The position numbers and the translations under genes were made by a program. Below, in pieces: positions 49,565 through 62,239 of a stretch of DNA of 64,000 nucleotides; positions within the stretch are counted from its first letter, which is position 1; each line of letters opens with the position of its first letter. Source of the DNA: a virus; the IMG/VR virus record IMGVR_UViG_3300034082_001517, positions 4,526 to 68,525 of that record. One strand, 5' to 3'. Below the pieces are notes generated by a model, which was given only the letters and a program-made list of their open reading frames with translations, did no database searches and was not told the origin of the DNA.

Positions 49565-49578
49565 CAAAGGTATAAGCA

Positions 49579-50178: not shown

Positions 50179-50180
50179 AC

Positions 50181-50252
50181 GCCCCTTTAGCTCAGTGGTA
50201 GAGCACCTCACTTGTAATGAGGTGGTCCTCGGTTCAATCCCGAGAGGGGGCT
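50181..50252 (+). tRNA. trnT: tRNA-Thr (anticodon TGT)
   Basis: GCCCCTT/GGGGGC acceptor, TAGCTCAGTGGTAGAGC D-arm, CCTCA-CTTGTAA-TGAGG, GGTTCAATCC. Confidence 0.93.
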
Positions 50253-50265
50253 CTTAGGAGGTATA

Positions 50266-50346
50266 ATGTCAAAACAAGATAAAATTACGCATGCAGTGTA
50301 TTTCACACTTCACGCAATTACAATTGCTATACTGTTAATTAAGTAA
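50266..50346 (+). CDS. 26-aa hydrophobic micropeptide between tRNAs
   Basis: AGGAGG RBS; MSKQDKITHAVYFTLHAITIAILLIK. Confidence 0.5.
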   Translation: MSKQDKITHAVYFTLHAITIAILLIK

Positions 50347-50351
50347 TACTC

Positions 50352-50427
50352 TGGCGAGTAGCTCAGTTGGCAGAGCAACGGACTGTTAATCCGTGGGTCG
50401 TAGGTTCAAACCCTACCTCGCCAGCCA
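50352..50427 (+). tRNA. trnN: tRNA-Asn (anticodon GTT)
   Basis: TGGCGAG/CTCGCCA acceptor, ACGGA-CTGTTAA-TCCGT, GGTTCAAACC, encoded CCA. Confidence 0.93.
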
Positions 50428-50993
50428 TGAAAATTATAGATAACTTTATTTCTGTAGAACAGCAAGATGAGTTGTTGGACTATGTTGGCTCCAATCAATT
50501 TGTTTGGCGTTTACATCCAACGAATATCAACTCTGGTGGTAAGCCGTGGGCTCATGCACCTGTTCAACTTACCCATCATTTATTTATGCATGATGAGAAA
50601 GCCGCTTCCCCACATTTAAAAATCATTCGTCCATTGTTTGATGCAATTGTTCGGGAGTGTGGAGATATTACATTATTTCGGGCTAAGGCTAATTTAACAT
50701 CCCCATGCCCACCGTACAGTTCATACGAGCCCCACACTCCACATGTTGATCTAGGGTATGACGATGGAACAAAGATTGATCATATGGTTTGCGTATATTA
50801 CATTAATGAATCTGATGGTCCAACAATATTTTTTGATAAAGATTGGAATGAAGAAGACATTGTGTATCCTAAAAAGGGTAGGGCTATTATATTTGATGGG
50901 AACACCCTTCATGCGGGTTCCAGTCCTGTACAATATCCATTTAGAATGGTAATGAACATAGACTTTAGACAAGGAGTGGGGCAAATCCCATAA
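50427..50993 (+). CDS. 2OG-Fe(II) oxygenase-like protein
   Basis: MKIIDNF start; PHVD...YYINESDGPT...PKKGR..FDG..LHAG...R; track start (50367) lies inside the tRNA. Confidence 0.82.
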   Translation: MKIIDNFISVEQQDELLDYVGSNQFVWRLHPTNINSGGKPWAHAPVQLTHHLFMHDEKAASPHLKIIRPLFDAIVRECGDITLFRAKANLTSPCPPYSSYEPHTPHVDLGYDDGTKIDHMVCVYYINESDGPTIFFDKDWNEEDIVYPKKGRAIIFDGNTLHAGSSPVQYPFRMVMNIDFRQGVGQIP

Positions 50994-51000
50994 AAACAAT

Positions 51001-51660
51001 ATGCCAGAGTTAAATGCTTCTATTCCCCCAATTGAATGTTATGTCCGTGGTAACTTTTTGCGTAATCAATTAGATAGCCATGACTTGAAGTTTCCTTGTG
51101 TTATTTTTGGAGTTGCTTCCATTCCCGACAGAGCGCCCGTATTTCATTTTCTAATGGAAGATGGCGGTGTTTGGTGGAGAGCCCCTATAAATGCTTTCTG
51201 CGCCTCTCTAGACAGTCCTGAAGTGGATCTACATGACCTTGTGATGTGGAATAGCTTTTCATCGCATATCACCGTTACCACCTTCCAACATATGAAGGGT
51301 ATGGCAATGACTTATATTGATCGTCATGCCAATAAGGTAAATGGCAAGTATCTATTCACTTTGGATTGGCATTCTCCCGACATTAACACTTTGGATGCAG
51401 GTTATTCGGTTAACCCAGGTCAGCACAAGTGCGGGCATGTGATTCAAAGGGCTGATGGTAACTTTGCTATCCAGCCAAACAATCGGGTGAGATTATGGGA
51501 TCCTTCATATACAACCAAGAAAGATAAACCTCTTATTGAAAGGTTGATTAATCAAAAGATTTGGGATGTTGAAGATGGGGAGAAATGGCTTACATCGGAT
51601 GATGACCGATATGATTATGATGTAGTGGCGCAAAAAGATACTAACAAGGATTTGAGGTAG
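51001..51660 (+). CDS. Conserved phage hypothetical protein
   Basis: PELNASIP...YLFTLDW...HKCGH...GNFAIQPNNR motif family. Confidence 0.75.
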   Translation: MPELNASIPPIECYVRGNFLRNQLDSHDLKFPCVIFGVASIPDRAPVFHFLMEDGGVWWRAPINAFCASLDSPEVDLHDLVMWNSFSSHITVTTFQHMKGMAMTYIDRHANKVNGKYLFTLDWHSPDINTLDAGYSVNPGQHKCGHVIQRADGNFAIQPNNRVRLWDPSYTTKKDKPLIERLINQKIWDVEDGEKWLTSDDDRYDYDVVAQKDTNKDLR

Positions 51661-51665
51661 TTTCC

Positions 51666-51794
51666 GTGATGTGGGTGTGGTGGATGACCGAGTTGGTTTT
51701 TATTTACTTTATGGAAGTTTCCCGTTATCTTGCCATTGGCGCTGTTTTGTTTGTCGTGGCGGAAATCGTACTAAGACGGAACGCTAAGTCTTAA
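51666..51794 (+). CDS. Possible small membrane protein (42 aa)
   Basis: GAGGT then GTG; hydrophobic; fills gap. Confidence 0.35.
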   Translation: MMWVWWMTELVFIYFMEVSRYLAIGAVLFVVAEIVLRRNAKS

Positions 51795-52196
51795 TTACTT
51801 CTTGTTGCGCTTGGCAAGGAGGGCATCAAAGTCTTTGATTTTGGTTTCGCCCATGTATCCCCATGCGTAGCCTTCTTCAATGAGTTGTTCGTTCAAGGAT
51901 TTGGCGGCTCCATCCAAATATACCCAGCCCAAGATACGCCCGTACTTTTCGGTGCTATCGGGGAGCTCTGTTTTTATAACAACTGTTTTGGCGGAATCTA
52001 TCGCCTTTTTGATTTTATCTTTCACTTCAAGCCCCAGAGCCTTCTCTCGCAGGTCTTTGGTGCGTGACTCGGGAGTATCTATTCCAGCCAGTCGGACTCG
52101 TTGTGCGTAAGAGATGTTAAAGCCTAAATCAATATCAACATCAATTGTGTCACCATCTACTACCTTGGTTACTTTCTTAATGTTATACTCGTACAT
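51795..52196 (-). CDS. Thermonuclease (SNase-like) family protein
   Basis: VVDGDT, VRLAGIDTPE, EKYGRILG, LIEEGYA. Confidence 0.92.
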   Translation of the reverse strand: MYEYNIKKVTKVVDGDTIDVDIDLGFNISYAQRVRLAGIDTPESRTKDLREKALGLEVKDKIKKAIDSAKTVVIKTELPDSTEKYGRILGWVYLDGAAKSLNEQLIEEGYAWGYMGETKIKDFDALLAKRNKK

Positions 52197-52250
52197 CTTT
52201 ATATTATATCACAGGTGGCGAAAAATGATTGTAGTAACAAGTTTGTGGCA

Positions 52251-52496
52251 TTAAGGTTCAATGAAGATGCATTCGCCAGGACATTCCTCGGCGGCTTCAA
52301 TCACATCTTCCAACCGATCATCGGCAAAAGATGCTAAACCAGCTGCGCCTTCGGGGTTTCCCACAGAGGAGGCAAAAATTTTGTCTCCTTCTCGTACATA
52401 TGCTAAACCATCGGGCATCATCGTAAACACATCGGGAGCTATCTCTGCGCACAATCCATCTCCAGTGCATAAGTCTTGATCAATCCAAACTCTCAT
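52251..52496 (-). CDS. Ferredoxin (actinobacterial single-cluster type)
   Basis: CTGDGLCAEIAPDVF...EECPGECI (CxxDxxC...CP). Confidence 0.92.
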   Translation of the reverse strand: MRVWIDQDLCTGDGLCAEIAPDVFTMMPDGLAYVREGDKIFASSVGNPEGAAGLASFADDRLEDVIEAAEECPGECIFIEP

Positions 52497-52532
52497 ATAG
52501 GAAGTATACCATTTTTACGCTATACTGTATAA

Positions 52533-52721
52533 ATGCCACAGTACAACTATCGCTGCCCTAATGGGCATACCTACGAAGAAGTAAGATCTATTCTGGAAGA
52601 TCAGAAAACAAAAGATTGTCCCGAATGCGGAGCTGTGCTCAAACAATCGTATTCCCCGCCTGGAATTCAATTCAACGGGCATGGCTTCTACCGCAACACC
52701 CGAAGCAATTCTAAGAAATAA
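52533..52721 (+). CDS. FmdB-like zinc ribbon protein
   Basis: MPQYNYRCPNGH...CPECG...IQFNGHGFY. Confidence 0.85.
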   Translation: MPQYNYRCPNGHTYEEVRSILEDQKTKDCPECGAVLKQSYSPPGIQFNGHGFYRNTRSNSKK

Positions 52722-52799
52722 TAATACACCCATACATTATTATTATGAGACAAATAATTCTCTCTCTATACTAGGAGAGGCAGCGAAAGCTAACCTTAG

Positions 52800-52868
52800 G
52801 ACCGTTATAGGTGCAGATGCCTCTGGACTAATCACCCAGGGGCATGTGCATGTTTAGCGGTCTTTTTT
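52800..52868 (+). terminator. Long hairpin + U-tract (terminator or 3' end of a small RNA)
   Basis: gaccgtta..tgca.atgcctctgg / ccaggggcat.tgca..tagcggtc then tttttt. Confidence 0.65.
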
Positions 52869-53151
52869 ATTCCCCCAAACTTTCTATCTAGTACATTACC
52901 CGCACCGAACCATCCCATCCCAAATTTTAGTACATATTTTATGAGTGTTACTTTACTTTTTTTTGCCATATGAGAATCCTGTGTCGTGTAGGGTCAATAC
53001 ATGACGGTGGTTCAACGATGCGCTTAGCTCAAGTTGAACAACCGATTGTTGGGGTTGGTGATGTATTTATATTGAATACACATTTGCGCTCATCCTGTAA
53101 GGTTATGGATGTCGGCAAGGTGCCCAGCCACAGCGACAGAAAGGGACTGCC

Positions 53152-53400
53152 GTGTCAACGACAGCCTGCAAGTCATTCGCAATCACGGTTGCGAGAGCGT
53201 TAGAGAGTGCCAAGTCCTACGAGACTGGTGAGACAGACAATCTTTACACAAACTTCCGTGTGAGCGAGAACTTTGACATCCTTTCAATCCGTTCCCTTGC
53301 CAATGAGGCACAGGGCTTGTTGGATGAACTGAGCAACCTTGTTGAAGGTTGCAAGGCTCAAGCCTGCACGATTGAACAGATGGCAAAGGACTTGATGTAA
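53152..53400 (+). CDS. Cassette 1 ORF a, hypothetical
   Basis: GTG after GAAAGGGA, 82 aa. Confidence 0.7.
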   Translation: MSTTACKSFAITVARALESAKSYETGETDNLYTNFRVSENFDILSIRSLANEAQGLLDELSNLVEGCKAQACTIEQMAKDLM

Positions 53401-53446
53401 GACCCGTCAGGGCTTTATTCCTACAACACATGAAAGGGGGTGAATA

Positions 53447-53536
53447 ATGGATATCAACATTGACCCGCTTACGGCAATGATGGTCATGGTGATCTGGGGC
53501 GCAGTCACCATGATCAGGGAGTACCTACGCAAGTAA
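53447..53536 (+). CDS. Cassette 1 ORF b, 29-aa membrane peptide
   Basis: AAAGGGGG RBS; MDINIDPLTAMMVMVIWGAVTMIREYLRK. Confidence 0.55.
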   Translation: MDINIDPLTAMMVMVIWGAVTMIREYLRK

Positions 53537-53795
53537 GCAGAGAGGGGAGGGGCTTCGGCTCCTCCCCTTTTTTTATGCCCGAACACCAAAGACCCAGGGC
53601 AGGCAGGACACAGTTGTTGAGTATGCGCTCACTACACGCTCACAATGTTTGGTGGGCGACAGTGCGCCTAGCTCAAGTTGCACTCCAATCATCAGGGTAT
53701 GCGGTCATATTCATATTGAATACACATTCCTTCTCATTATGTAAGGTAATGGATGTCGGTAAGAGTGCCAAGTCACAACGACAAGGAGCAAGGTA

Positions 53796-54089
53796 ATGGA
53801 TGAATACGGATTAGTCCTAATGCTTATGGCATTTGGAATACTGTGTTGTCTGTCGGGGTATGCGTTTGGATACGCCGAGCGAGACAATGCGATTGAATCA
53901 GCCCGTGATCGTGCTTACGATGAATGGCTTGAGACCAAGTACACTCCCTATGAGATTGCTACAGGTGCCGCAGATGATGAGGCATATACAGACTGGAGCG
54001 GTTGGACTGGTCTTGGTTACAAGCGTTCTCGTGAGGAACTGGATCAAATGTGGAAAGACCTTGAGACCTCAACGGAAAGGGGTAAATAA
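53796..54089 (+). CDS. Cassette 2 ORF, N-terminally anchored membrane protein
   Basis: AGGAG RBS, TM segment at N-terminus. Confidence 0.75.
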   Translation: MDEYGLVLMLMAFGILCCLSGYAFGYAERDNAIESARDRAYDEWLETKYTPYEIATGAADDEAYTDWSGWTGLGYKRSREELDQMWKDLETSTERGK

Positions 54090-54376
54090 CGAATAACTAA
54101 ACCCAACCAGCGAGCGTGTGGTGTGTCCCCTCCGACACATCACACGCTCACTTTTTTTTGCCCCGAACACCATGCACACAGCACAGGTAGGTCTCAGAGT
54201 TTAACATACACTCAGCCTACACATGCTGTGCTTGGTGGACTACGGTGCGCTTAGCTCAAGTTGTACTCCAATGATAAGGTGATGCGGGTAGATTTACATT
54301 GAATACATATTCTTACTTACTCTGTAAGGTAGTAGATGTCGGAACAAACCTAACCCCGATAGAGAGGATAACCATT

Positions 54377-54643
54377 ATGGAATTTTCCCTAATACTTGGT
54401 TCCTTCTACGCTTACACTAATGGTCATATGTATGAGATTTACTCTACATACGCTGATGACGGTGTGTGCGTGTATGTAGCGTGGTGCTATACAACAACCT
54501 CAGACCGTGTGGTTGAGGGTACAGTAGAGCGTTACGAGACAGACAGCCTGCGTTCAGCGAAAGCGTGGTGCAGGAAGTACGACAGGAAGCGCCAGGCTCA
54601 CTTGCTGGAGAAACAGCAGGACAGGTATCGTATCTACAACTGA
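54377..54643 (+). CDS. Cassette 3 ORF, hypothetical (88 aa)
   Basis: ATG after GAGAGGA; SLRSAKAWC motif. Confidence 0.7.
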   Translation: MEFSLILGSFYAYTNGHMYEIYSTYADDGVCVYVAWCYTTTSDRVVEGTVERYETDSLRSAKAWCRKYDRKRQAHLLEKQQDRYRIYN

Positions 54644-54906
54644 TACGAACAATCAAACCCTCACCTTCGGGTGGGGGTTTTTTTGTTGCCCGAACACCCA
54701 ACACACAGCACACATAGGTCTCAGAGTTTTAATATGCACTCAACGCACACATGCTGTGGGGTGGTGGGCAACGGTGCGCCTAGCTCAAGTTGCACTCCAG
54801 CGATCAGGGGATGCACACGATTTCATATTGAATACATATTCTCTCACACTCTGTAAGGTATTGAGTGTCGGTAAGAGTGCCAAGTCACAACGACAAGGGG
54901 AATACA

Positions 54907-55203
54907 ATGAAACAGCAAAGCAAGGCGCAAGCACGGGCTAAGCAAAGCCGTGAGCAGGTACAAGCCAACAAGCGTATCAAGGCTGTCAATGCCGATATGC
55001 GCAATGGCGATACCGTAATGACACTGGGCGAGCAATTGGCAATGCTCACCGATAAGTACGAGCAGGCATTGAGCAAGAACGGAAGCAATCACCCATCAAC
55101 ACAAGGGCTCTTGTTCCTTGTTCGTTCCTACTCAAGCACTATCCAGAACCAGACAACGGATAAAGCCAAAGCCGAAGCCAAAGCAAACACAATCGCTCAA
55201 TAG
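54907..55203 (+). CDS. Cassette 4 ORF, basic helical protein (98 aa)
   Basis: ATG after AAGGGG. Confidence 0.7.
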   Translation: MKQQSKAQARAKQSREQVQANKRIKAVNADMRNGDTVMTLGEQLAMLTDKYEQALSKNGSNHPSTQGLLFLVRSYSSTIQNQTTDKAKAEAKANTIAQ

Positions 55204-55480
55204 CGACTATCCACCCCCAATAATACAAATCAACCCCTTGCCTTCGGGCAGGGGGTTTTTTTGTGCCCCGAACACCACCATCTCAGGACGCATAGATCTC
55301 AGGGTTTAATATGCACTCAACGCACACAAGATACGGTGGTGGGCAACGGTGCGCATAGCTCAAGTTGCACTCCAGCGATAAGGATATGATGATGCTTTTA
55401 TATTGAATACATATTCTCACTCACTTGGTAAGGTGTTATCTGTCGGCAAGGTGCCAAGTCACAGCGATAAGGGGTAAGCA

Positions 55481-55714
55481 ATGAGAACAGTAATTAGCAT
55501 TCCCACCGAGCAATGCCCACTCTGTAGCAAGATGGGTGAGATCACTATGGATCTCGGAGTGTGGGAGATCGGCGTAGTCAAGCGTGCGCAAGGGGAATAT
55601 ATCCAAGATGCATTCCCCGCACTCTCGGCAGGGGAGCGTGAACAACTTATGACAGGCATTCATTCAGAGTGCTGGGATAAGGAATTTGCAGGCACCGAAG
55701 AGGAAGGCGAATAA
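55481..55714 (+). CDS. Cassette 5 ORF a, zinc-binding actinophage-type protein
   Basis: CPLC...IQDAFP.LS..EREQLMTGIHSECWD. Confidence 0.75.
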   Translation: MRTVISIPTEQCPLCSKMGEITMDLGVWEIGVVKRAQGEYIQDAFPALSAGEREQLMTGIHSECWDKEFAGTEEEGE

Positions 55715-55959
55715 TGTCGCTTAGCCAAGAGGTGCTGTACGAGATCCTGCACGCCGTAGCCTCGCTACGCATTCCTAAAGTAGACGGGGTAATCCTTGAC
55801 GCTCTCAAGGTGCCTGATGAGATACTGAAGGAAGGCGGTGTAAGGTGCAGGTATTACAAGCGCATGGTGGAGCGTGATATACATAATCACCCCGCCATCA
55901 AGCCAGTATCTGTCCATTGGACAGCGCACGGTGATTGCTTTCTACGGAAAGCAGTTTGA
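55714..55959 (+). CDS. Cassette 5 ORF b, hypothetical
   Basis: TAATG coupling, 81 aa. Confidence 0.7.
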   Translation: MSLSQEVLYEILHAVASLRIPKVDGVILDALKVPDEILKEGGVRCRYYKRMVERDIHNHPAIKPVSVHWTAHGDCFLRKAV

Positions 55960-56219
55960 AAAATTCCCTCCCGAGCCGAAAGGCTTGGGGGGGTTTTTTT
56001 TGCCCGTACTCCGACCAGACAGCACGCAACAGTAAACCATATTGAATACATGCTCACTACACATGCTATGAGGGTGGTGGGCAACGGTGCGCATAGCTCA
56101 AGTTGCACTCCAGCAATAAGGATAATATGATATAAACATATTGAATACATATTCTCGCTCATATTGTAAGGTATTGAGTGTCGGTACAGCGCCAAGTCGC
56201 AACGACAAGGGAGAAGCAA

Positions 56220-56486
56220 ATGCGTAAAGTAAAGGCAGGTTCAGTCAATGTAATCAAGCGTGGTCGTGCTAAGCGTCACGATCAGTATCTAATTGACTGT
56301 GTGAACGCTGTAACCAATGCGACAGATGTAATGGTCACAGAGTGTCGTATCCCTAATACCGTTGTAGATAAAGGGCGTATTCGTGCCCGTATCGCAAGGG
56401 CGCAAGGGTCAACCAAACTAAGTATCCAATTCCACTTGGATAAAGGCAAACTTATCCCCGTGCTAAGCAAGAAGCGCACTAAGTAA
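56220..56486 (+). CDS. Cassette 6 ORF, divergent KRGR-family protein (88 aa)
   Basis: MRKVKAGSVNVIKRGR...; ATG after AAGGGAG. Confidence 0.75.
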   Translation: MRKVKAGSVNVIKRGRAKRHDQYLIDCVNAVTNATDVMVTECRIPNTVVDKGRIRARIARAQGSTKLSIQFHLDKGKLIPVLSKKRTK

Positions 56487-56790
56487 CCAAGTCGCTTCCC
56501 CAAGCAGTCCCCTCAAGCCGAAAGGCTTGGGGGGATTTTTTTTTGCCCGAACACCGACCACACAGCACACAGCGATGCCCAATGTTGAATACACGCTCAC
56601 CATACATGCTATGAGGGTGGTGGGCAACGGTGCGCCTAGCTCAAGTTGCACTCCAGCAGTAAGGGGATGATGACATATTTATATTGAATACATATTCTCT
56701 TTACATATGTAATGTAATGAGTGTTGGTGAGCGCCTAATTGCTCACATTCCGTGAGCGATGGCTAAAAACTCATCGCAAGGGAAAAGCCA

Positions 56791-57099
56791 ATGAGTAAGA
56801 AAATAAATCTAAGCCAAGTCACAAACTTGGTCAAGCGTGGCAGACAAGCCATTATTGACCTCGCTCTAGTTGCCGATATCCAGGCGCTAGACCCAGCGAT
56901 TGAGGGTGACGCATTCATCTACGAGGACGCACAAGGCGACACCAGCGATGAGGATTTTCCAAATTGGAAAAACACTTGGCGAGGTCGTGTCGCAAAAGCA
57001 GGCGAGGCTTGCGACCGTGAATGCTCCATTCTGTGGACTACAGAGGGAGAGATGGTGGTATCACTCAAGCCTGTCAAGGGCAAGCGCAAGCGCAAGTAG
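56791..57099 (+). CDS. Cassette 7 ORF, KRGR-family paralog 1
   Basis: NLVKRGRQA...KNTWRGRVAKA...SLKPVKGKRKRK. Confidence 0.85.
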   Translation: MSKKINLSQVTNLVKRGRQAIIDLALVADIQALDPAIEGDAFIYEDAQGDTSDEDFPNWKNTWRGRVAKAGEACDRECSILWTTEGEMVVSLKPVKGKRKRK

Positions 57100-57419
57100 T
57101 GAGACCATAGTGAGGTAAAGAGTTACCTTGCCAAACTAACCCCATAAGCCTTATGGCTTGTGGGGTTTTTTTGGGTGGTGTTCTCGCTGGCTAGTCGCCC
57201 AGAGAACACCACCTTGCAGAGAGTCCCTATGCTCACAAATTTAATACACATTTCCTATCCCGACACATGGCGGTTGGGCAACGGTGCGATTAGCTCAAGT
57301 TGCACTACCGCCGTAAGGGAAGTATAGGGACTTTATATTGAATACAAATTCTGATGACATAGGTATAGTTATTGATGTCGGTATAAACGCCAAGTCGTAT
57401 CCGATAAAGGATAACTACA

Positions 57420-57722
57420 ATGAAAGTCAATCTAAACGAATTGACCAATTTGGTCAAGCGTGGCAGGCAGGCAATCCTTGATATGAATCTTGTTGCAGAG
57501 ATTCAGACCATTGATCCAGCAATCATTGGTGATGCAATCATCTATGATCTTGCACAAGGTGATCCAAGTGATGAAGACTTTGCCAATCACAAGAACACTT
57601 GGCGTGGGCGTGTTGCCCGCAGTGCCGAGTATCTCGGCGTTGATTGCTCGGTCAATTGGACAACCGAAGGCGAGATGATCGTCTCGCTCAAGCCCGTCAA
57701 GGCTAAGCGCAACCGCAAGTAG
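57420..57722 (+). CDS. Cassette 8 ORF, KRGR-family paralog 2
   Basis: Clearly homologous to 56791-57099. Confidence 0.85.
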   Translation: MKVNLNELTNLVKRGRQAILDMNLVAEIQTIDPAIIGDAIIYDLAQGDPSDEDFANHKNTWRGRVARSAEYLGVDCSVNWTTEGEMIVSLKPVKAKRNRK

Positions 57723-58032
57723 TTAGTGCCCCGCAAGCCCAATGAATACAAGAGCCCCGTGAGCCTTAGTGCTCACGGGGCTTTCTTGGCGGTTGTTCTC
57801 GCTGGCTATACGCCCAGAGAACAACCGCCGCTTAGAGTCACACCTGATCTCATGTTTAGTACACAATTCCCAATCACAATACACGGCTGTGGTTCAACGG
57901 TGCGCCTAGCTCAAGTTGAACAACAGCCAATTGGGAAATAGAGGAGAAATATATTGAATACATATTCTCACTTACTTGTTACTATGTATTTGTGGGTAAC
58001 AATGCCAAGTCATATCCCATAAAGGAAATACA

Positions 58033-58341
58033 ATGACCCTTAAAGTCAATTTGAGCGAAATCACCAATTTGGTGAAGCGTGGCAGGCAGGCTGTCATAGA
58101 TCAGGCGTTACTTGCCGACATTATGTCATTAGACGCTAATGTTGCTGGCGATGCCTTTATTTATGCCGATGCCCAAGGCGACCCAACAGACGATGAATTT
58201 GTTAATCACAAAAATTCATGGCGTGGGCGTGTTGCCAAGGCTGGCGAAGCGTGTGACCGTGACTGCTCCATTTTGTGGACTACAGCAGGCGAAATGGTCG
58301 TATCGCTCAAGCCAGTAAAGGCGAAGCGCAACCGTAAGTAA
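58033..58341 (+). CDS. Cassette 9 ORF, KRGR-family paralog 3
   Basis: Approx. 75% identical to 56791-57099 by manual count (26 differences in 102 aa). Confidence 0.85.
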   Translation: MTLKVNLSEITNLVKRGRQAVIDQALLADIMSLDANVAGDAFIYADAQGDPTDDEFVNHKNSWRGRVAKAGEACDRDCSILWTTAGEMVVSLKPVKAKRNRK

Positions 58342-59222
58342 TTCCCCCGTTAGGTAATAGAGACAAACCCCATATGCCATAAGGCGTATGGGGTTTTTCT
58401 TTACGGGTGTTCTCGCTGGCTATTCGCCCAGAGAACACCCGTTTTGTCTATGCCAATGCGATTAGATATTTAATACAAATTCTCAATCTCTATTCATGTA
58501 AATGGCGGGTGGTCCAAATAGAAATGTATTTGTATTTGTACACCCGCCAAAATTTATATGTTTATATCTGCGTTTTTAATAATGTTACTAATCATACACA
58601 TGTTTATACCTATACAATCAGAAATGTATTTACAATTAACAATGAGGAGGTCGGGGTTATCATAGGGGCTGGGATAGCGGATGCGATTCTCTATATCTGT
58701 CGGGGCAAATTACAACTGTGTAATCAATGCGTATATCAGTATGTATACAGAACCATTTAACCCCCGATAAATCTGTACTAAAATCGCTGGAGATTAGCGG
58801 CTGTAAAAAGACCTATTAAAAGGGGGTTGATTAGTTATATCTATGTATCTATCCTCCTAGTAAGGACTGATATAGGTTATTTCGTATAGCGAATCATAGG
58901 GGGTCTCTAATTATGAGCTTTTTTGCCCCGTTTTGTTCAATTGTTGACCAATTTAGTCGTATATTATTATATTTATGCCTATTTTTATTTATTTATTACC
59001 CTAATTTTAGGCAAAAAAAAGCCCAAGAATAGCTATGTTTAGGGCTATTCCTGGACTCTTATTCTGTGATATATCAGCTAAATATTAATATCGTACACCA
59101 CATATATTGATAATATATGAACGATATTGGAACGCTTTACTTACTAATGCTAATAGTTTTCAGCTATTTCCTTCTAATAATCTTTCAGCTATTTCTCTCT
59201 ATAATTATTTCAATCTATATTT

Positions 59223-59546
59223 TTATCTATTAAACATATCTATTATCTGGGCATTCAATTCTTCCTGTGTATCTGCCAATGGGTTTGTTCCAGAGTCAAA
59301 CATACTCTTTACTACTTCATATGAATACTTATCTTGATTACTAGGATGACTTAATACTCCTTCAACCCGATTTTTTATGAAACGAAGAAATTCATTAACA
59401 ATATCATTGGCTGTAATCTTATCTTCCATCTCCAGATCAGAGTTACTAATCAACTCTTTCAGCCACCTACCACCAAAGATTAGGTTAAAAACTTCTTCTG
59501 GATTCAAATCATTATATTCATCATTGCTCATATTTATCCTTACCAT
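59223..59546 (-). CDS. Hypothetical protein
   Basis: Acidic ORF, probable start at MSNDEY after AAGGA. Confidence 0.6.
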   Translation of the reverse strand: MVRINMSNDEYNDLNPEEVFNLIFGGRWLKELISNSDLEMEDKITANDIVNEFLRFIKNRVEGVLSHPSNQDKYSYEVVKSMFDSGTNPLADTQEELNAQIIDMFNR

Positions 59547-59654
59547 TAATATAGGGTTGTATTGGGATAATTGTTTTGCTTAATTCTTCTCTAAGCTTAT
59601 CAAAATTGTATTCATACATCATCTCTTCATCCGATATACATTCGCCATAATATA

Positions 59655-59876
59655 TCATCCTACCAACCTTTCTAATTTTATTTTGCAATCCAAATAAGCC
59701 AAAGTTCTATTATGTGCTTGGATATTTAAAATGGTTAACAAAGATACATTCTCTTCATTAGACTTATCAGTTTCGTCTATCCTTTTCTCAATGACTTGAA
59801 TTTCTCTTTCAAGACGAAGAATGTCTTGTTCAATTTCATCCTTCACAGTCATGTCCATAAGCAGCCTCCTCTTCAT
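59655..59876 (-). CDS. Hypothetical coiled-coil protein
   Basis: ORF track; probable start slightly downstream. Confidence 0.55.
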   Translation of the reverse strand: MKRRLLMDMTVKDEIEQDILRLEREIQVIEKRIDETDKSNEENVSLLTILNIQAHNRTLAYLDCKIKLERLVG

Positions 59877-60000
59877 TTAACATTTTGTCACATTCATAAC
59901 AGATATCATAAAAGAATTCACCAGTTTCTGGATCTTGCATTACTCTTACAGCATCTAATTTTACTGGAATCATCCTATCCTTATTATCTTCGTATTTCAT
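59836..60000 (-). CDS. Possible small Zn-binding protein (54 aa)
   Basis: MKYEDNKD...CYEC...GHDCEG; ATGA overlap with upstream stop. Confidence 0.5.
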   Translation of the reverse strand: MKYEDNKDRMIPVKLDAVRVMQDPETGEFFYDICYECDKMLNEEEAAYGHDCEG

Positions 60001-60266
60001 AATGTTGGGCTCCAATCATTTGTTTCGTGTCCATGTCCATATGTAGTATTTACAAAATCTTCATATAAATCCCTTTTATACTCCGCAATCAATAACCTAA
60101 GGTTATTTAAAATGCCATTGATACTGTCATAATCAGGGTGAGAAGTAACCATATATCCCATAACAGAATGCTGTAAATCCTCAATAAATCCCTTAATTAA
60201 AACAATACCACTTTCCATTTGTTCTAAAGTAAGATCCATATATTCTCCATGTTTATCAATAGCCAT
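59997..60266 (-). CDS. Hypothetical protein
   Basis: 89 aa, AAAGGGA RBS. Confidence 0.65.
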   Translation of the reverse strand: MAIDKHGEYMDLTLEQMESGIVLIKGFIEDLQHSVMGYMVTSHPDYDSINGILNNLRLLIAEYKRDLYEDFVNTTYGHGHETNDWSPTL

Positions 60267-60269
60267 AAC

Positions 60270-60401
60270 TTAATCCCTTTCCCAATGCCGATGAATATGT
60301 CTTTTATTTTCTCCAGGGTAATCATATTTATCTACACTTCTCTTGGTATGCCAATGAAGTCCAATGTATAACCCTAGGAACAATGCTAATACCATTCTCA
60401 T
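60270..60401 (-). CDS. Possible small membrane protein (43 aa)
   Basis: MRMVLALFLGLYIGLHW...; ATGA overlap. Confidence 0.45.
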   Translation of the reverse strand: MRMVLALFLGLYIGLHWHTKRSVDKYDYPGENKRHIHRHWERD

Positions 60402-60721
60402 ATATCCCTCCCTTCTGCTTTTGAATAGTTTTCTCTTTCAATAATAAAGAAGAACCCTCTTGAAACAATTAGCTTTTGATGCAACACACAGCAATGATCT
60501 TTGTTATACTGACTCTTAACCGTATTGCAGCCAATAAAACAACAAATCCCTGTATGAATTTTGGTATGATCAAAACCTATTTCAATTAAGCACTTCTCCG
60601 TTCTTCTATTTCTAGCTTGAGTTCTTTCTCCTTTAACTCTCCCTTTATAATCTGGGTTTAATTTCTTCATTTCTTGTTTTCTTTGATGCGCTCTCTTATG
60701 TCTATCTGTATAAGTTGACAT
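60398..60721 (-). CDS. Basic Cys/His protein (putative Zn finger)
   Basis: CCFIGC...CCVLH. Confidence 0.6.
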   Translation of the reverse strand: MSTYTDRHKRAHQRKQEMKKLNPDYKGRVKGERTQARNRRTEKCLIEIGFDHTKIHTGICCFIGCNTVKSQYNKDHCCVLHQKLIVSRGFFFIIERENYSKAEGRDI

Positions 60722-60749
60722 ACCCCAATCCTTTCAAATAGGTTACTTA

Positions 60750-61376
60750 TTAGTCTACTAAGGCTTCTTTCTTAATATAGAAAGGCTCTTTATTGTGATC
60801 GCACAAACCAATTTCTTCATTTAATATTCTGGTCAATACATTTACTGCAGAAAGATAATCAATAGAAGTGAAATCAACACACAAATCACCACTATCCCAC
60901 TCTTCTCCGTATTCAGTTGCTTCATCTATTGTTTCATAATCACCTTCAAGTTTAAATTCATACCTATCTGGTTCATTAACCATCAACCATTTCCAAATAC
61001 ATGAATCAGCATTGTAATAAATGTTTCTTCCTTCGTCATAAGAAAAGCCTAAGAAATCATTTGACTCTGTTTCAAACTGACGAACAAAGTCAATAGTATC
61101 GTCACCTGCTAACCATTCAGGAGCTTTCCAGTTATTAACTATTGCTGTAGCAAACCCAGCAATACAACCCATAGATGTACAATTGAAAATATCAGTACCC
61201 ACAATCATATTCTTTACTTGATCTGCCCTATATGTACTTGCTAATTCACCATGTTCAAATACATTTTCAACTTTATACTCTTCGTCAAATTTACCAATGA
61301 ATGTGCTCATGTTAAATTTTGTCGCACCATCAATCTTAATGGCATCAATTACTCTTTGTAAGTTTTCCTTATTCAT
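60750..61376 (-). CDS. Hypothetical protein, paralog of 62430-63059
   Basis: FNMS.F...FNCTSMGCIAGFATA. Confidence 0.8.
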   Translation of the reverse strand: MNKENLQRVIDAIKIDGATKFNMSTFIGKFDEEYKVENVFEHGELASTYRADQVKNMIVGTDIFNCTSMGCIAGFATAIVNNWKAPEWLAGDDTIDFVRQFETESNDFLGFSYDEGRNIYYNADSCIWKWLMVNEPDRYEFKLEGDYETIDEATEYGEEWDSGDLCVDFTSIDYLSAVNVLTRILNEEIGLCDHNKEPFYIKKEALVD

Positions 61377-61377
61377 G

Positions 61378-61950
61378 TTATTTCCCTGCCTTTTCTTGTT
61401 TATTGTTTGGATAGTCTCTATTATACGAATCTGAAATCTTATATGCTTTAATCAGATCTTCAACAACAATATCAGTACTGTCTTTATCTAATCTAAAAGA
61501 ATCGTCTAAAGGACAGATTAATTTATAATCAGTTACAGCAAATACCTTTTGCCAATCTTTAGGTTCATTGGCATCATGAATTCTTTGTGCAAAAGAAAGC
61601 ATAGCCATACTCTTATCTGTTTTATTCCAATTAGGAGTTGATTCATTAACAGCGTCTAATACTTCATCATCAACTGCTGTTTTACCCTCTATATCTGGAT
61701 CATAAAGATTATCCAAAATAAGCCAACCAATGGCACATTTTGTGTCTGTCTTAGTTTTTACATCCATACCACGATAAGCACAATCATCATCATTTATGAC
61801 AATATCATCGCCTGTATCTTCGTCATATTCATACGCAAGTAACCTTGATTTCATATTCTGTTTTATAAGGTTTTTTGCAATATGACGCAAAGCTTGTCCG
61901 TCATTAGTTATTTCAGATAAATCTTTCTTTAATTGTTCTAGTGTTTCCAT
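61378..61950 (-). CDS. Hypothetical protein (CAYR...KCAIG...Q.IHD family)
   Basis: Motif family frequent in large phages. Confidence 0.75.
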   Translation of the reverse strand: METLEQLKKDLSEITNDGQALRHIAKNLIKQNMKSRLLAYEYDEDTGDDIVINDDDCAYRGMDVKTKTDTKCAIGWLILDNLYDPDIEGKTAVDDEVLDAVNESTPNWNKTDKSMAMLSFAQRIHDANEPKDWQKVFAVTDYKLICPLDDSFRLDKDSTDIVVEDLIKAYKISDSYNRDYPNNKQEKAGK

Positions 61951-62017
61951 ATTAAAAGCCCTCCATTTGGGTCTGTAATCGTTTATAATCGTTTATAAAT
62001 GTTAAATGCTAGATAGT

Positions 62018-62239
62018 TCACTCATTTGGGAAAATATAAAAGGCAGTGTCCATTTCTTTATCCATTGCAAAGAAACAACCTGGACCATTACCTTCTTCAT
62101 CTTGTGAGGGATAGATAATTGAACCATCATCTAATACCAAACAAACAGAGTTATAAGGACTATTATCCCAACCCTCTTTCTCAATTACTTTCTTATTAAG
62201 TGATCTTACATCAACAATTTTTCTTCCAATTACTTCCAT
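62018..62239 (-). CDS. Hypothetical protein
   Basis: IGRKIVDVR...PSQDEEGNGPG. Confidence 0.75.
   Translation of the reverse strand: MEVIGRKIVDVRSLNKKVIEKEGWDNSPYNSVCLVLDDGSIIYPSQDEEGNGPGCFFAMDKEMDTAFYIFPNE

What the first reader, a model, noticed from the sequence alone, without database searches (positions are those of the whole stretch)
52990..58550. Array of nine modular expression cassettes built on a shared approx. 250-bp non-coding scaffold: best candidate for an undescribed system
Seen: units recur every approx. 530-740 bp in fixed order: [terminator] - gcccgaacacc or hairpin B - TT(G/T)A(A/G)TAY box - hairpin A (16-nt conserved core) - ATTGAATACA box - TAnnnT - leader hairpin (CCAAGT loop) - SD - 1-2 small ORFs - terminator. 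Cargo ORFs are unrelated in units 1-5 and paralogous in 6-9. The region is visibly GC-richer than the rest. Known analogues: PeSL promoter/stem-loop cassettes of T4-like phages and the SPO1 host-takeover module, but to my knowledge those do not have three separate covarying hairpin families. Inference: a first-expressed host-takeover/anti-defence array whose scaffold gives coordinated regulation and acts as a recombination platform for gaining, losing and duplicating cargo (integron-like, with no integrase in this window).
Basis: partly seen in the sequence, partly recalled or inferred. Interest (0 to 1): 0.92.

Follow-up and report, generated by a model that had tools for sequence, protein, structure and literature searches.

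The report
Phage array of modular gene cassettes
A fragment of an uncultured lake phage carries nine small genes or gene pairs, each with its own copy of one promoter-hairpin-terminator scaffold; close relatives carry different genes in the same scaffold, much like the known shuffling cassettes of T4-like phages, but with an extra conserved hairpin of unknown role.

Summary
Nine units (529-738 bp apart) plus a truncated tenth lie at 52970-58560. Each has a terminator, an upstream box, a roughly 45-nt three-tier hairpin A, an ATTGAATACA box, a TAnnnT hexamer 20 nt later, a leader hairpin, an SD, 1-2 small ORFs and a terminator.

The window is a 51%-complete fragment of a long-tailed lake phage. 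It has a 4214-aa tape measure. Array-bearing relatives, one of them 100% complete, encode WhiB, so the host is probably an actinobacterium.

Six further arrays in related contigs keep the architecture. Hairpins A and B show compensatory changes. Hairpin A has 45 G-U cells against 8 A-C cells, so it folds as the + strand.

Cargo differs among relatives that are 86-96% identical: cassettes are added, replaced and once moved. Four of six breakpoints lie at different scaffold positions. Internal scaffolds cluster by lineage. No integrase, resolvase, HUH transposase, sigma factor or phage RNA polymerase was found in the complete relative.

Best reading: a hyperplastic accessory-gene region of self-contained transcription units, shuffled by homologous recombination. 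This is a PeSL-like system in a different phage lineage, and it is not integron-like. The promoter class (20-21 nt spacing), the timing of expression and the role of hairpin A remain untested. Verdict: a new variant of a known kind, of moderate interest.

The parts
52970..53151 (+). Unit 1 scaffold. TAGGGT hexamer at 53001-14, about 52987-52992; hairpin A 53001-53050; mini-ORF MYLY ending at the TGA of the box; box ATTGAATACA 53071-53080; TAAGGT 53098-53103; leader hairpin about 53110-53138; SD.
   Evidence: (R1 48.5 bits)
53152..53536 (+). Unit 1 cargo. ORF 53152-53400 (82 aa, GTG start, family F3) and ORF 53447-53536 (29 aa, hydrophobic, family F7).
   Evidence: no Pfam or PHROG family above noise
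53543..53575 (+). Unit 1 terminator: a G+C-rich hairpin followed by a T run.
   Evidence: read; not listed by the scan
53576..53795 (+). Unit 2 scaffold. GCCCGAACACC 53577-53587; upstream box 53617-53630; hairpin A 53645-53694; mini-ORF 53699-53719 (MRSYSY); box 53715-53724; TAAGGT 53742-53747; leader hairpin with CCAAGT loop; SD.
   Evidence: (60.3 bits)
53796..54089 (+). Unit 2 cargo ORF (97 aa, family F9; N-terminal hydrophobic stretch).
   Evidence: weak PriCT_2 match below the cut-off
54112..54159 (+). Unit 2 terminator (16 pairs plus a T run).
54160..54376 (+). Unit 3 scaffold. Remnant of hairpin B; upstream box 54200-54213; hairpin A 54228-54277; mini-ORF MRVDLH; box 54298-54307; TAAGGT 54325-54330; leader hairpin of another type (loop CCTAACC).
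   Evidence: (58.8 bits)
54377..54643 (+). Unit 3 cargo ORF (88 aa, family F4).
   Evidence: no family
54655..54687 (+). Unit 3 terminator.
54688..54906 (+). Unit 4 scaffold. GCCCGAACACC; upstream box 54728-54741; hairpin A 54757-54806; mini-ORF MHTISY; box 54827-54836; TAAGGT 54854-54859; leader hairpin with CCAAGT loop.
   Evidence: (63.1 bits)
54907..55203 (+). Unit 4 cargo ORF (98 aa from the ATG, family F5).
   Evidence: no family
55232..55264 (+). Unit 4 terminator.
55265..55480 (+). Unit 5 scaffold. Remnant of hairpin B; upstream box 55305-55318; hairpin A 55332-55381; mini-ORF MMMLLY; box 55402-55411; TAAGGT 55429-55434; leader hairpin with CCAAGT loop.
   Evidence: (65.3 bits)
55481..55959 (+). 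Unit 5 cargo. ORF 55481-55714 (77 aa, family F2, phrog_20898 of unknown function, E 1.9e-9) and overlapping ORF 55714-55959 (81 aa, family F10).
55966..56001 (+). Unit 5 terminator.
56002..56219 (+). Unit 6 scaffold. Variant remnant GCCCGTACTCC; upstream box 56041-56055 (exact ATTGAATACA); hairpin A 56070-56119; 2-codon mini-ORF; box 56140-56149; TAAGGT 56167-56172; leader hairpin with CCAAGT loop.
   Evidence: (63.0 bits)
56220..56486 (+). Unit 6 cargo ORF (88 aa, distant member of family F1, 28% identical to unit 7).
56506..56545 (+). Unit 6 terminator.
56546..56790 (+). Unit 7 scaffold. GCCCGAACACC; upstream box 56584-56598; hairpin A 56613-56662; mini-ORF MMTYLY; box 56683-56692; TAATGT 56710-56715; long leader with alternative pairings GTGAGC/GCTCAC/GTGAGC (MFE -21.2, z -3.5).
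   Evidence: (64.3 bits)
56791..57099 (+). Unit 7 cargo ORF (102 aa, family F1; basic N- and C-terminal ends).
   Evidence: 59 homologues; model pLDDT 82.7; no fold match
57138..57172 (+). Unit 7 terminator.
57173..57419 (+). Unit 8 scaffold. Hairpin B 57174-57213; upstream box 57239-57253; hairpin A 57267-57316; box 57337-57346; TATAGT 57364-57369; leader hairpin with CCAAGT loop; no mini-ORF.
   Evidence: (64.4 bits)
57420..57722 (+). Unit 8 cargo ORF (100 aa, family F1).
57753..57788 (+). Unit 8 terminator-like hairpin with a weak T tail (TTTCTT).
   Evidence: (listed on the - strand only)
57789..58032 (+). Unit 9 scaffold. Hairpin B 57789-57828; upstream box 57855-57868; hairpin A 57883-57932; box 57953-57962; TACTAT 57980-57985; leader hairpin with CCAAGT loop; no mini-ORF.
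   Evidence: (60.0 bits)
58033..58341 (+). Unit 9 cargo ORF (102 aa, family F1).
58365..58396 (+). Unit 9 terminator.
58397..58560 (+). Truncated tenth scaffold. Hairpin B 58403-58442; upstream-box-like ATTTAATACA at 58468; degenerate hairpin 58502-58552 in the place of hairpin A (R1 21.4 bits). It has no promoter box and no cargo, and it marks the right edge of the array.

Best explanation
What it is. The region is a hyperplastic accessory-gene region of an uncultured freshwater siphovirus, probably one that infects Actinobacteria. It is built from self-contained transcription units.

How each unit is built. A unit starts with an array-specific promoter: a 14-17-nt box, TTGAATACAYATTC, which contains the palindrome GAATA-CA-TATTC, followed 20-21 nt later by a TAnnnT hexamer. 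I infer that the host RNA polymerase uses this promoter, perhaps with a phage factor. The mRNA is predicted to begin with a stem-loop 4-9 nt after the hexamer. That stem-loop directly abuts an AAGGAG-type ribosome-binding site. One or two small ORFs of unknown function follow, and an intrinsic terminator closes the unit.

The part upstream of each promoter. This part looks like a second, degenerate copy of the same module. It holds an upstream box 98-102 bp before the promoter box, then hairpin A, then an AAGG-type SD-like motif, and often a 2-8-codon mini-ORF that stops at the TGA inside the promoter box.

How the array changes. Because about 220-250 bp of scaffold is repeated, general homologous recombination and gene conversion between scaffolds add, delete, replace and occasionally move cassettes without breaking their expression signals. 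Recombination can occur within one genome or between co-occurring strains. This works like the PeSL cassettes of T4-like phages.

Shown and inferred. Shown: the repeats, the terminators, the covariation of the hairpins, the cargo differences among relatives, the scattered breakpoints and the lineage-wise similarity of internal scaffolds. Inferred: promoter activity, the transcription start, early timing, the mRNA-stabilising role of the 5' stem-loop and the recombination mechanism.
For: Architecture and repeats.

Promoter. All 45 of 45 units examined in six arrays have a TAnnnT hexamer 20 nt (21 units) or 21 nt (24 units) after TTGAAT; TAAGGT occurs in 22 and TAATGT in 9.

Leader. A stem of 5-12 pairs begins a few nt after the hexamer and ends at the SD in most of 43 units. 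Its arms vary: TGTCG/CGACA, TGTCAAGG/CCTTGACA, TGCCAAC/GTTGGCA, TGTCAGCG/CGCTGACA.

Hairpin A. In 43 copies, 88.6% of cells pair and 54 cells are changed on both sides. None of 500 shuffles reach this, and slid controls pair in 27-48% of cells. RNAalifold finds the same helices on its own. G-U/U-G cells number 45 against 8 A-C/C-A cells.

Hairpin B. In 12 copies, 99.5% of cells pair and 8 pairs show compensatory change.

Same architecture elsewhere. Arrays of this kind are present in L005-L008, L012/L032, L026, L014/L035 and L036/L038 (= G001).

Cargo variation. The window runs F3-F7-F9-F4-F5-F2-F10-F1x4. L005 adds X1 and replaces F4 with X2 and X3. L006 has a Y1+Y2 cassette before F2. In L007 a Y1+F10-like cassette replaces F2+F10. 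L012 and L026 carry F6, F8 and F11. In G001, F6 lies after the first F1.

Breakpoints lie at different scaffold positions. Internal scaffolds cluster by lineage, whereas the first unit and the hairpin-B units cluster by position.

No site-specific recombinase, sigma factor or T7-type RNA polymerase was found in G000-G004, including the 100%-complete G001.

Co-occurring variants: contigs of lake DNA runs carry L012-type scaffold sequence beside window-type sequence (table 5c).

The PeSL concept and its evidence were read as passages of PMC2839356 and the abstract of PMC4122927.
Against: Promoter. The conserved box plus hexamer is not a canonical sigma-70 promoter. The 16-18-nt scan finds none of the nine, and overall finds 16 sites against 15.3 expected. 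Promoter activity is therefore inferred from conservation and position only.

Timing. Nothing shows early expression. In the complete relative the array lies at the end of a 12-kb + strand block that converges on an AT-rich - strand block of small genes, and that block could equally be the early region.

Hairpin A is not explained by this model. It sits upstream of the inferred promoter and downstream of a terminator, yet it shows strand-specific pairing.

Two of the six breakpoints lie outside any scaffold, and one has 17 nt of filler, so illegitimate events also occur.

Weak points in my analyses. The scaffold tree is a FastTree of 150-nt pieces whose support values I did not inspect. The cargo ORF calls in the relatives come from my own crude ORF rule and include some spurious ORFs.

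Host. The inference rests on WhiB genes in relatives G001-G003. G000 itself, at 51% complete, has none. The neighbouring nuclease is closest to cyanophage genes among isolated phages.
Confidence: 0.6

Rival explanations
1. Hairpin A is a cis-acting RNA element. It could be an operator for a phage protein, a put/nut-like antitermination signal or a processing site. It would act on transcripts that enter each unit from upstream. The array would then also run as one coordinated read-through unit, and the box-plus-hexamer promoters would be only part of the control. This adds to the main reading and does not exclude it.
For: The pairing is strand-specific (45 G-U against 8 A-C cells) and covaries.

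An AAGG-type motif follows the hairpin. In the 36 nt before the box TGA, ATG codons fall 31, 1 and 6 times in frames 0, 1 and 2, and 23 of 44 units have an in-frame mini-ORF of 2-8 codons. This suggests that ribosomes see the region.

The first units of the window, L005 and G001 have a TAGGGT hexamer 10-14 nt before the hairpin base.

The loop sequence is uniform within a lineage and differs between lineages: GCTCAAG in all 9 window copies, GCACAAG in the 7 L012 copies aligned, and TTNA loops in G001. That pattern is what sites read by a co-evolving factor would show.

One 1830-nt contig of an RNA library spans 56629-58446, across three cassettes with their terminators and scaffolds (table 8).
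Against: In 42 of 45 units there is no TAnnnT at a suitable distance upstream of hairpin A, and an intrinsic terminator precedes every unit but the first.

The mini-ORF is absent from 21 of 44 units and from all 6 units of G001. The units are paralogues, so the frame counts are not independent.

The RNA-library contigs may come from contaminating DNA. Their ends coincide with those of DNA contigs at the repeats (56085/56086-56521 in X22 and X23), so they say nothing about transcripts.

No Rfam family matches at E up to 1. No binding protein is identified.
Confidence: 0.3
2. The boxes are operators for a phage-encoded DNA-binding regulator. The promoter box would overlap the promoter and the upstream box would lie about 100 bp away. 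The regulator would switch all cassettes on or off together, in the manner of a repressor with repeated oriented sites (the 'stoperators' of Cluster A mycobacteriophages, recalled, not looked up) or of an activator working with a -10-only promoter.
For: The box contains a 5+2+5 palindrome, GAATA-CA-TATTC, centred about 30 bp before the start (my reading).

Two boxes per unit lie in the same orientation, 98-102 bp apart, in 31 of the 36 units whose upstream box scores 10 or more of 14.

Exact copies occur only in the array.

Contigs with closely similar nuclease genes (85-91% identical to the window's nuclease) carry dense TGTAAnnTTACA palindromes in the corresponding region instead. A regulator and its sites that changed specificity together would give this pattern.

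WhiB-type regulators are encoded by relatives.
Against: No regulator is identified. The conserved box (about 14-17 nt) reaches beyond the palindrome and is asymmetric. The upstream box may be no more than a decayed copy of the promoter. Nothing was tested at the bench.
Confidence: 0.3
3. The array is an integron-like platform. Hairpin A, or hairpin B, would be an attC-like folded single-strand recombination site that a dedicated recombinase cuts at a fixed point to capture and excise cassettes.
For: The region is an array of small-gene cassettes separated by a hairpin that keeps its structure and folds as one strand. Units 1 and 9 have arms GTTCAAC...GTTGAAC, which resemble the attC core pattern RYYYAAC...GTTRRRY (the pattern is recalled). 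Cargo differs among relatives.
Against: The 100%-complete relative G001 and four further records have no tyrosine recombinase, serine recombinase or Y1 HUH transposase.

The AAC/GTT arms are not kept in relatives, which have GCGAT/ATTGC, GATTC/GAATTG and GCGGC/GTTGC.

Breakpoints are scattered, and only one of six lies at hairpin A.

Every cassette has its own promoter-like site and terminator. The hairpin lies 5' of the gene, not 3' of it.
Confidence: 0.05
4. The scaffold is only the trace of recent tandem duplication and has no function of its own beyond an ordinary promoter and terminator.
For: Internal scaffolds of one lineage are the most alike. GCCCGAACACC is a dead half of hairpin B.
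Against: The same architecture persists in lineages whose scaffolds have diverged strongly, such as G001 and L026, and both hairpins show compensatory changes there. The cargo between similar scaffolds is unrelated, so simple duplication of whole units cannot have made units 1-5.
Confidence: 0.07

Closest known systems
PeSL (promoter-early stem-loop) cassettes of T4-like myoviruses (Arbiol, Comeau and Krisch 2010, PMC2839356, passages read; Comeau et al. 2014, PMC4122927, abstract read)
   Same: Both are composite promoter-plus-terminator motifs repeated between small ORFans in a hyperplastic region. Insertions, deletions and replacements between close relatives end in or beside the motifs. 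No dedicated recombinase is involved. Homologous recombination between the motifs is proposed as the shuffling mechanism.
   Different: Here the shared scaffold is about 220-250 bp, against roughly 100 bp for PeSL. The promoter-like site is not sigma-70 canonical: a box, then 20-21 nt, then TAnnnT. The terminator is separate from the promoter. There are extra conserved parts: an upstream box, the covarying three-tier hairpin A with an SD-like motif and mini-ORF, hairpin B, and a 5'-terminal leader hairpin. The phage is a long-tailed siphovirus, probably of Actinobacteria. Mini-circles and promoter activity are not shown here.
Start-associated sequences and extended SAS (SAS/ESAS) of Cluster K mycobacteriophages (Pope et al. 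2011, PMC3203893, passages read)
   Same: Both occur in actinophages. A conserved inverted repeat with a variable spacer lies directly upstream of a conserved translation-start-associated motif, before many genes and in one orientation. The repeat consensus differs between phage subgroups. The function is unknown.
   Different: SAS/ESAS are scattered over the genome before particular gene families. They are not in a tandem array, they are not tied to a terminator-promoter scaffold, and they are not linked to cargo shuffling. I did not compare the sequences.
Integron cassette arrays (recalled textbook knowledge; also used as a comparison in PMC2839356)
   Same: Both are tandem arrays of small, variable cassettes separated by a folded, structure-conserved site.
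   Different: There is no integrase. The cassettes carry their own promoters and terminators. The hairpin lies upstream of the gene. Breakpoints are not fixed.
Morons of lambdoid phages and the SPO1 host-takeover module (recalled; morons are discussed in PMC2839356)
   Same: Both are independent promoter-gene-terminator units of small accessory genes in a phage genome.
   Different: Morons do not share a conserved flanking scaffold. The SPO1 module was not compared here with any tool.

Membership tests
PeSL cassettes (T4-like phages) | Composite intergenic motif joining a strong sigma-70-like early promoter to a stem-loop that terminates transcription | tested here: inconclusive
   Intrinsic terminators are present. 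A conserved box and TAnnnT hexamer are present in 45 of 45 units, but the spacing is 20-21 nt and the 16-18-nt sigma-70 scan misses them. Activity was not measured.
PeSL cassettes (T4-like phages) | Motifs flank ORFans in hyperplastic regions, and indels or replacements between close relatives end at the motifs | tested here: met
   The cargo has no informative family. L005, L006 and L007 differ from the window by whole cassettes. Four of six breakpoints lie in scaffold parts.
PeSL cassettes (T4-like phages) | Recombination between neighbouring motifs yields mini-circles | not testable with these tools
   Only assembled contigs were available, and they break at the repeats.
PeSL cassettes (T4-like phages) | Host lineage: T4-like myoviruses | tested here: not met
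   The phage has a 4214-aa tape measure with PF10145, and its portal is closest to Streptomyces siphoviruses at 44%. This is a different phage lineage, so I file the array as working like PeSL, not as a member.
Integron | An IntI tyrosine recombinase encoded beside the array | tested here: not met
   PF00589 gives no match in G000 (51% complete) or in G001 (100% complete), G002, G003, G004 and G005. The control rang in 14 of 14 genomes.
Integron | attC sites with conserved AAC...GTT core pairs at the 3' end of promoterless cassettes | tested here: not met
   The AAC/GTT arms are not kept in relatives. The hairpin lies 5' of the gene. Every unit has its own promoter-like site and terminator.
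IS200/IS605- or REP/RAYT-type hairpin elements | A Y1 HUH transposase that recognises the hairpins | tested here: not met
   PF01797 gives no match in G000-G004. The control rang in 6 genomes.
Known RNA families (Rfam 15) | A match of any hairpin to a curated covariance model | tested here: not met
   In 50000-60000 at E up to 1, only two tRNAs reach their gathering score. The sub-threshold hits lie on terminators, not on hairpin A.
SAS/ESAS of Cluster K mycobacteriophages | A 13-bp SAS 3-8 bp before the start codon, with or without a 17-bp imperfect inverted repeat just upstream | not tested
   Only passages of PMC3203893 were read, and the consensus sequences were not compared. The likeness is one of design only.

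The most novel reading that the evidence does not exclude
Hairpin A, with its SD-like motif and the mini-ORF that stops inside the promoter box, is a new class of phage cis-regulatory RNA. It would be read by a lineage-specific phage factor; the always-present basic F1 proteins or a phage WhiB are candidates. The element would couple read-through, or the stability of incoming transcripts, to firing of the next promoter. The array would then be one co-regulated expression platform that spreads by copying its own scaffold, and not just a row of independent units.
Probability: 0.22. Interest if true: 0.75.

Novelty: new variant of a known kind. Interest (0 to 1): 0.55.

Why it matters
Regulatory-cassette shuffling has so far been documented in print for T4-like myoviruses; my one literature search on this was the PeSL search. 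If this reading holds, the same mechanism also shapes accessory-gene regions in an abundant, uncultured lineage of large freshwater phages that probably infect Actinobacteria.

The array offers three things:
- a defined set of small proteins, likely to act on the host, to test;
- a conserved promoter class with unusual spacing;
- a well-supported structured element (hairpin A) with no known family, which could be studied as a regulatory RNA.

The scaffold is also a practical marker for finding hypervariable gene cassettes in metagenomes.

Tried and rejected
N4-like reading. At first the 4214-aa ORF and the hairpins suggested an N4-like phage with hairpin promoters read by a virion RNA polymerase. 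I rejected this: the giant ORF is a tape measure (PF10145), and no T7/N4-type polymerase domain was found. For that search the control rang in none of the 14 genomes, so the negative result is weak.

Searches that found nothing useful:
- blastn of the array against isolated phages gave no match, and tblastn of the F1 protein gave no match.
- The hairpin-A core pattern in IMG/VR gave 4 single hits, all without the surrounding architecture, so I take them as chance.
- A looser core pattern in bacterial and archaeal genomes gave at least 120 loci with one match each. By my arithmetic about 500 are expected by chance in 596 Gb. I did not inspect them.
- The F1 profile found no loci in IMG/VR or in genome contigs.

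F1 function. The AlphaFold model is confident (pLDDT 82.7), but Foldseek against the PDB gave no match at E <= 0.001. The Atlas gave only unnamed clusters.

Antisense promoter. The - strand of units 2, 4, 6 and 9 reads TTGGC(A/G)-16/17 nt-TACCTT or CATAGT (my reading; the scan lists one of these, at 58008). The loops of relatives lack TTGGCA, so it is not conserved and I did not pursue it.

Upstream box as the promoter for hairpin A. Only 3 of 45 units have a TAnnnT at a fitting distance.

Reads. All four runs are stored as contigs. The contigs of DNA and RNA runs break at the repeated scaffolds. The 'skips' and 'goes back' joints mostly have other letters between their sides, or an unknown content there, and short sides of 36-59 nt, and they fit divergent scaffolds of co-occurring relatives. 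I therefore draw no conclusion from them about excised circles, deletions, transcript ends or expression level. The second RNA run (X24) holds only three short contigs, inside or at the start of cargo ORFs (55640-55894, 56887-57098, 58016-58183). The lack of cover elsewhere is no finding. DNA carry-over in the RNA libraries could not be checked, because only one call was allowed.

Supplementary files of the papers were not opened; figures 2-5 and the supplementary tables of the PeSL papers, which hold the motif alignments, could bear on how close the likeness is.

Full report
**What is there**

Between 52970 and 58560 on the + strand, nine units recur with start-to-start spacings of 529-738 nt. 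One 108-nt repeat family has nine copies, 60-82% identical to the reference copy. The hairpin-A core matches nine times against none expected. ATTGAATACA occurs exactly ten times in the 64-kb window, always inside the array.

Read, each unit has these parts in order:
- the terminator of the preceding unit;
- either a 40-nt hairpin B (before units 8 and 9, and in a truncated tenth scaffold) or only its 3' half, GCCCGAACACC (units 2-7);
- an upstream box, T(T/G)(T/A)A(A/G)TAY;
- hairpin A;
- an AAGG-type motif, often with a tiny ORF;
- the box ATTGAATACA;
- a TAnnnT hexamer 20 nt after TTGAAT;
- a leader hairpin;
- an SD;
- one or two ORFs of 29-102 aa;
- a G+C-rich hairpin with a T run.

The terminator scan finds 19 sites in 52000-59500 against 5.9 +/- 2.2 expected. 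Seven of the nine unit ends are listed on the + strand. The region has 47-50% GC, against 30-44% in nearly all other bins. The cargo of units 7-9 is 70-75% identical, that of unit 6 is a 28% relative, and the rest are unrelated to one another.

**What genome this is**

The window is bases 4526-68525 of a 68,525-bp IMG/VR virus record. The record is linear, and CheckV estimates it as 51% complete. It encodes a 4214-aa tape measure protein (PF10145), a portal, a prohead protease, a ribonucleotide reductase, 2OG-Fe(II) oxygenases and three tRNAs. The portal is closest, at 44% identity, to the portals of 130-kb Streptomyces siphoviruses.

Related records that carry the same kind of array encode WhiB (PF02467): two genes in G001 (108,840 bp, 100% complete), one in G002 and two in G003. 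Among the 14 control genomes, this family rang only in Corynebacterium. The host is therefore probably an actinobacterium of lakes. This is an inference from relatives: the fragment itself has no WhiB gene. The neighbouring nuclease is most like cyanophage genes among isolated phages. The stretch occurs nearly whole in 22 lake-water DNA runs, 7 of which may be sources of the record.

**Relatives**

A profile of the F1 cargo family found 59 metagenomic homologues and five metagenome loci. The nuclease gene next to the array (51795-52196, - strand) and the box pattern brought in IMG/VR loci.

Arrays with the same architecture occur in the following loci:

| Locus | Units |
|---|---|
| L005 | 11 |
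| L006 | 5 |
| L007 | 3 |
| L008 | 5 |
| L012 | 8 |
| L032 | 7 |
| L026 | 10-11 |
| L014/L035 | at least 6 (cut by the contig end) |
| L036/L038 = G001 | 6-7 |

In the complete G001, a covariance model of hairpin A hits only the array (contig 57,977-62,029). In the window it hits the nine copies, plus weak hits on the degenerate terminal hairpin and, on the - strand, on hairpin B and on the unit-9 copy of hairpin A. The scaffold is thus specific to the array and is not a genome-wide signal.

Contigs whose nuclease is 85-91% identical (L041, L043, L045, L046, L050, L052-L055) carry a different set of motifs in the corresponding place: dense TGTAAnnTTACA palindromes, GGTGTAAC...GTTACACC hairpins and TTTAGTA...CTTTATGG words. 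One copy of a TTTAGTA...TTTATG word also stands at the left edge of the window's array, near 52926.

**The structured elements**

Hairpin A. 43 copies from six arrays were aligned. It has an outer stem, a G-C pair, a middle stem and a short apical stem. For this structure 88.6% of cells pair and 54 cells are changed on both sides. None of 500 shuffles reach these values, and slid controls pair in 27-48% of cells. RNAalifold predicts the same outer and middle helices on its own. Of 588 cells, 476 are Watson-Crick, 45 are G-U or U-G, and only 8 are A-C or C-A. The fold is therefore selected on the + strand as a single strand, either RNA or single-stranded DNA.

The loop is uniform within a lineage and differs between lineages. 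In G001 the inner helix varies among units, with compensation.

Hairpin B. In 12 copies, 99.5% of cells pair and 8 pairs show compensatory change. The hairpin-A model also scores it on the opposite strand, at 20-40 bits. It therefore looks like an inverted, diverged copy of A.

Leader hairpin. It begins 4-9 nt after the hexamer and ends at the SD in most of 43 units. Its arms differ between units. That is the expected place for a 5'-terminal stem-loop of the mRNA. Such stem-loops are known to protect bacterial mRNAs from 5'-end-dependent decay (established knowledge, recalled).

**The promoter-like site**

All 45 of 45 units have a TAnnnT hexamer 20 or 21 nt after TTGAAT. This is not a canonical sigma-70 spacing, and the 16-18-nt scan does not find these sites.

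The box contains the palindrome GAATA-CA-TATTC, centred about 30 bp before the expected start. A second, weaker box lies 98-102 bp upstream in 31 of the 36 units where it is recognisable. No sigma factor or T7-type polymerase was found in the five records searched; the polymerase search lacks a positive control.

I infer a -10-driven promoter of the host polymerase whose upstream box is read by a factor, either a repressor or an activator. This is not shown.

**The second module**

After hairpin A comes an AAGG-type motif. In 23 of 44 units it is followed by an ATG that opens a 2-8-codon ORF ending at the TGA of TTGAAT. ATGs in this 36-nt stretch fall 31, 1 and 6 times in frames 0, 1 and 2.

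Box, hairpin, SD and ATG thus occur twice per scaffold. The upstream copy lacks a -10 hexamer in 42 of 45 units.

The frame bias hints that ribosomes see this stretch, and so that some transcripts cross hairpin A. But the units are paralogues, so the counts are not independent. No usable RNA evidence could be obtained: the two RNA libraries that hold parts of the array are stored as contigs, these break at the repeats just as the DNA contigs do, and DNA carry-over cannot be excluded.

**Cargo dynamics**

The order of cargo families is as follows:

| Array | Order of cargo families |
|---|---|
| Window | F3-F7-F9-F4-F5-F2-F10-F1x4 |
| L005 | F3-X1-F7-F9-X2-X3-F5-F2-F10-F1x4 |
| L012 | F3-F7-u-F4-F5-F6-F2-F1x4 |
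| L026 | F3-F11-F8-F4-u-F5-F6-F2-F1x4 |
| G001 | F8-F4-F5-F2-F1-F6-F1-F1 |

In L006 a Y1+Y2 cassette, flanked by two unit-5-like scaffolds, precedes F2. In L007 a Y1+F10-like cassette stands where F2+F10 stand in the window. There is thus a conserved backbone with gain, loss and replacement of whole cassettes and one change of position.

The ends of homology between the window and L005, L006 and L007 lie at +47, -164, -68 and -155 nt from the nearest promoter box. These positions are, in turn, the leader, a terminator, the base of hairpin A and a terminator T run. Two more lie outside scaffolds: a 530-bp difference between the F3 ORF and the 29-aa ORF, with 17 nt of unrelated filler in the window.

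In a tree of 150-nt scaffold pieces, the internal scaffolds of window+L005, of G001 and mostly of L012 group by lineage. First units and hairpin-B units group by position (support values not inspected). That pattern fits gene conversion among internal scaffolds.

No tyrosine recombinase, serine recombinase or Y1 HUH transposase is encoded in G000-G004.

All this fits homologous recombination between repeated scaffolds, with some illegitimate events. It does not fit site-specific, integron-like capture.

**Cargo function**

None of ten cargo proteins reaches a Pfam cut-off. One matches a PHROG of unknown function. The F1 family is present in three or four copies in every array. It has basic ends and a confident alpha/beta model (pLDDT 82.7), but no structural or named relative. 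'Host takeover' or 'anti-defence' is a reasonable guess for small ORFan genes with their own strong signals, but nothing here tests it.

In the complete relative the array ends a 12-kb + strand block and converges on an AT-rich block of small - strand genes. Early timing therefore cannot be read from the map.

**Comparison with what is known**

The closest described system is the PeSL cassette of T4-like phages. These are composite promoter-terminator motifs of about 100 bp between ORFans in hyperplastic regions. They mediate insertion, deletion and replacement by homologous recombination and form mini-circles (PMC2839356, passages; PMC4122927, abstract).

The present array works like that but is not a member. 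It sits in another phage lineage, has another promoter type and a scaffold twice as long, and carries extra conserved structured parts.

The hairpin-plus-SD design recalls the ESAS/SAS of Cluster K mycobacteriophages. Their function is unknown, and their repeat consensus also differs between subgroups (PMC3203893, passages).

No Rfam family matches. I found no description of this array. The searches behind that statement are the three literature searches and the sequence searches. They do not amount to a full literature review.

**Verdict**

It is wrong about the integron-like mechanism and untested on timing and function.

The finding is a new variant of a known kind. Its most interesting open part is hairpin A: a strand-specific, covarying, array-specific element with an SD-like motif and a mini-ORF that ends inside the promoter box.

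Noticed in passing
window 3974-16618 (-): A 4214-aa ORF with a phage minor tail (tape measure) domain. The relative G001 has one of 4375 aa. This implies an exceptionally long tail.
   Followed up: partly
L041, L043, L045, L046, L050, L052-L055 (region upstream of the nuclease gene): Contigs with 85-91% identical nuclease genes carry another motif system in place of the array: dense TGTAAnnTTACA palindromes, GGTGTAAC...GTTACACC hairpins and TTTAGTA(n)CTTTATGG words, again set between terminators. This may be a parallel regulatory-cassette system with another specificity.
   Followed up: partly
window 58450-59220: A 770-bp AT-rich non-coding stretch where the + strand array and the - strand small-gene block converge. 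It holds several sigma-70-like matches on both strands. It could be a replication origin, a packaging site or the genome end.
   Followed up: no
window 59223-63787 (-): A block of small ORFs with 31-34% GC. In G001 the same kind of block runs for about 24 kb. Two 208/209-aa paralogues lie at 60750-61376 and 62430-63059.
   Followed up: no
window 52832-52969 (-): A 45-aa ORF with an SD-like motif runs divergently from unit 1. The DNA is conserved in L005, L026 and G001. If the ORF is real, its promoter would overlap hairpin A of unit 1.
   Followed up: no
window 53742-53790, 54854-54900, 56167-56215, 57980-58010 (- strand): On the - strand, the conserved leader loop and the hexamer region read TTGGC(A/G)-16/17 nt-TACCTT or CATAGT. 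This is a better sigma-70-type match than the + strand site. It is not conserved in relatives.
   Followed up: partly
window 56716-56790: The leader of unit 7 is longer and can form alternative pairings, GTGAGC/GCTCAC/GTGAGC, plus a second hairpin (MFE -21.2 kcal/mol, z -3.5). It may be an attenuator-like switch.
   Followed up: no
window 49483-50427 (+): Three tRNA genes lie upstream of the array block: Leu-TAA, Thr-TGT and Asn-GTT. L005 differs from the window here: about 2 kb in L005 against 0.7 kb in the window between 49575 and 50263. L005 also lacks the 219-aa ORF at 51001-51660.
   Followed up: no
X22 contig at window 55066-55218 joined to 56516: One lake DNA run holds, at about 8 times the depth of the window-type contigs, a related sequence in which an F5-like gene is followed by a scaffold of the unit-7 type. 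That would be a strain without the F2/F10 and unit-6 cassettes. The same joint is seen in one RNA-library contig. The sides of the joint are short (37 nt), so this is only a lead.
   Followed up: no
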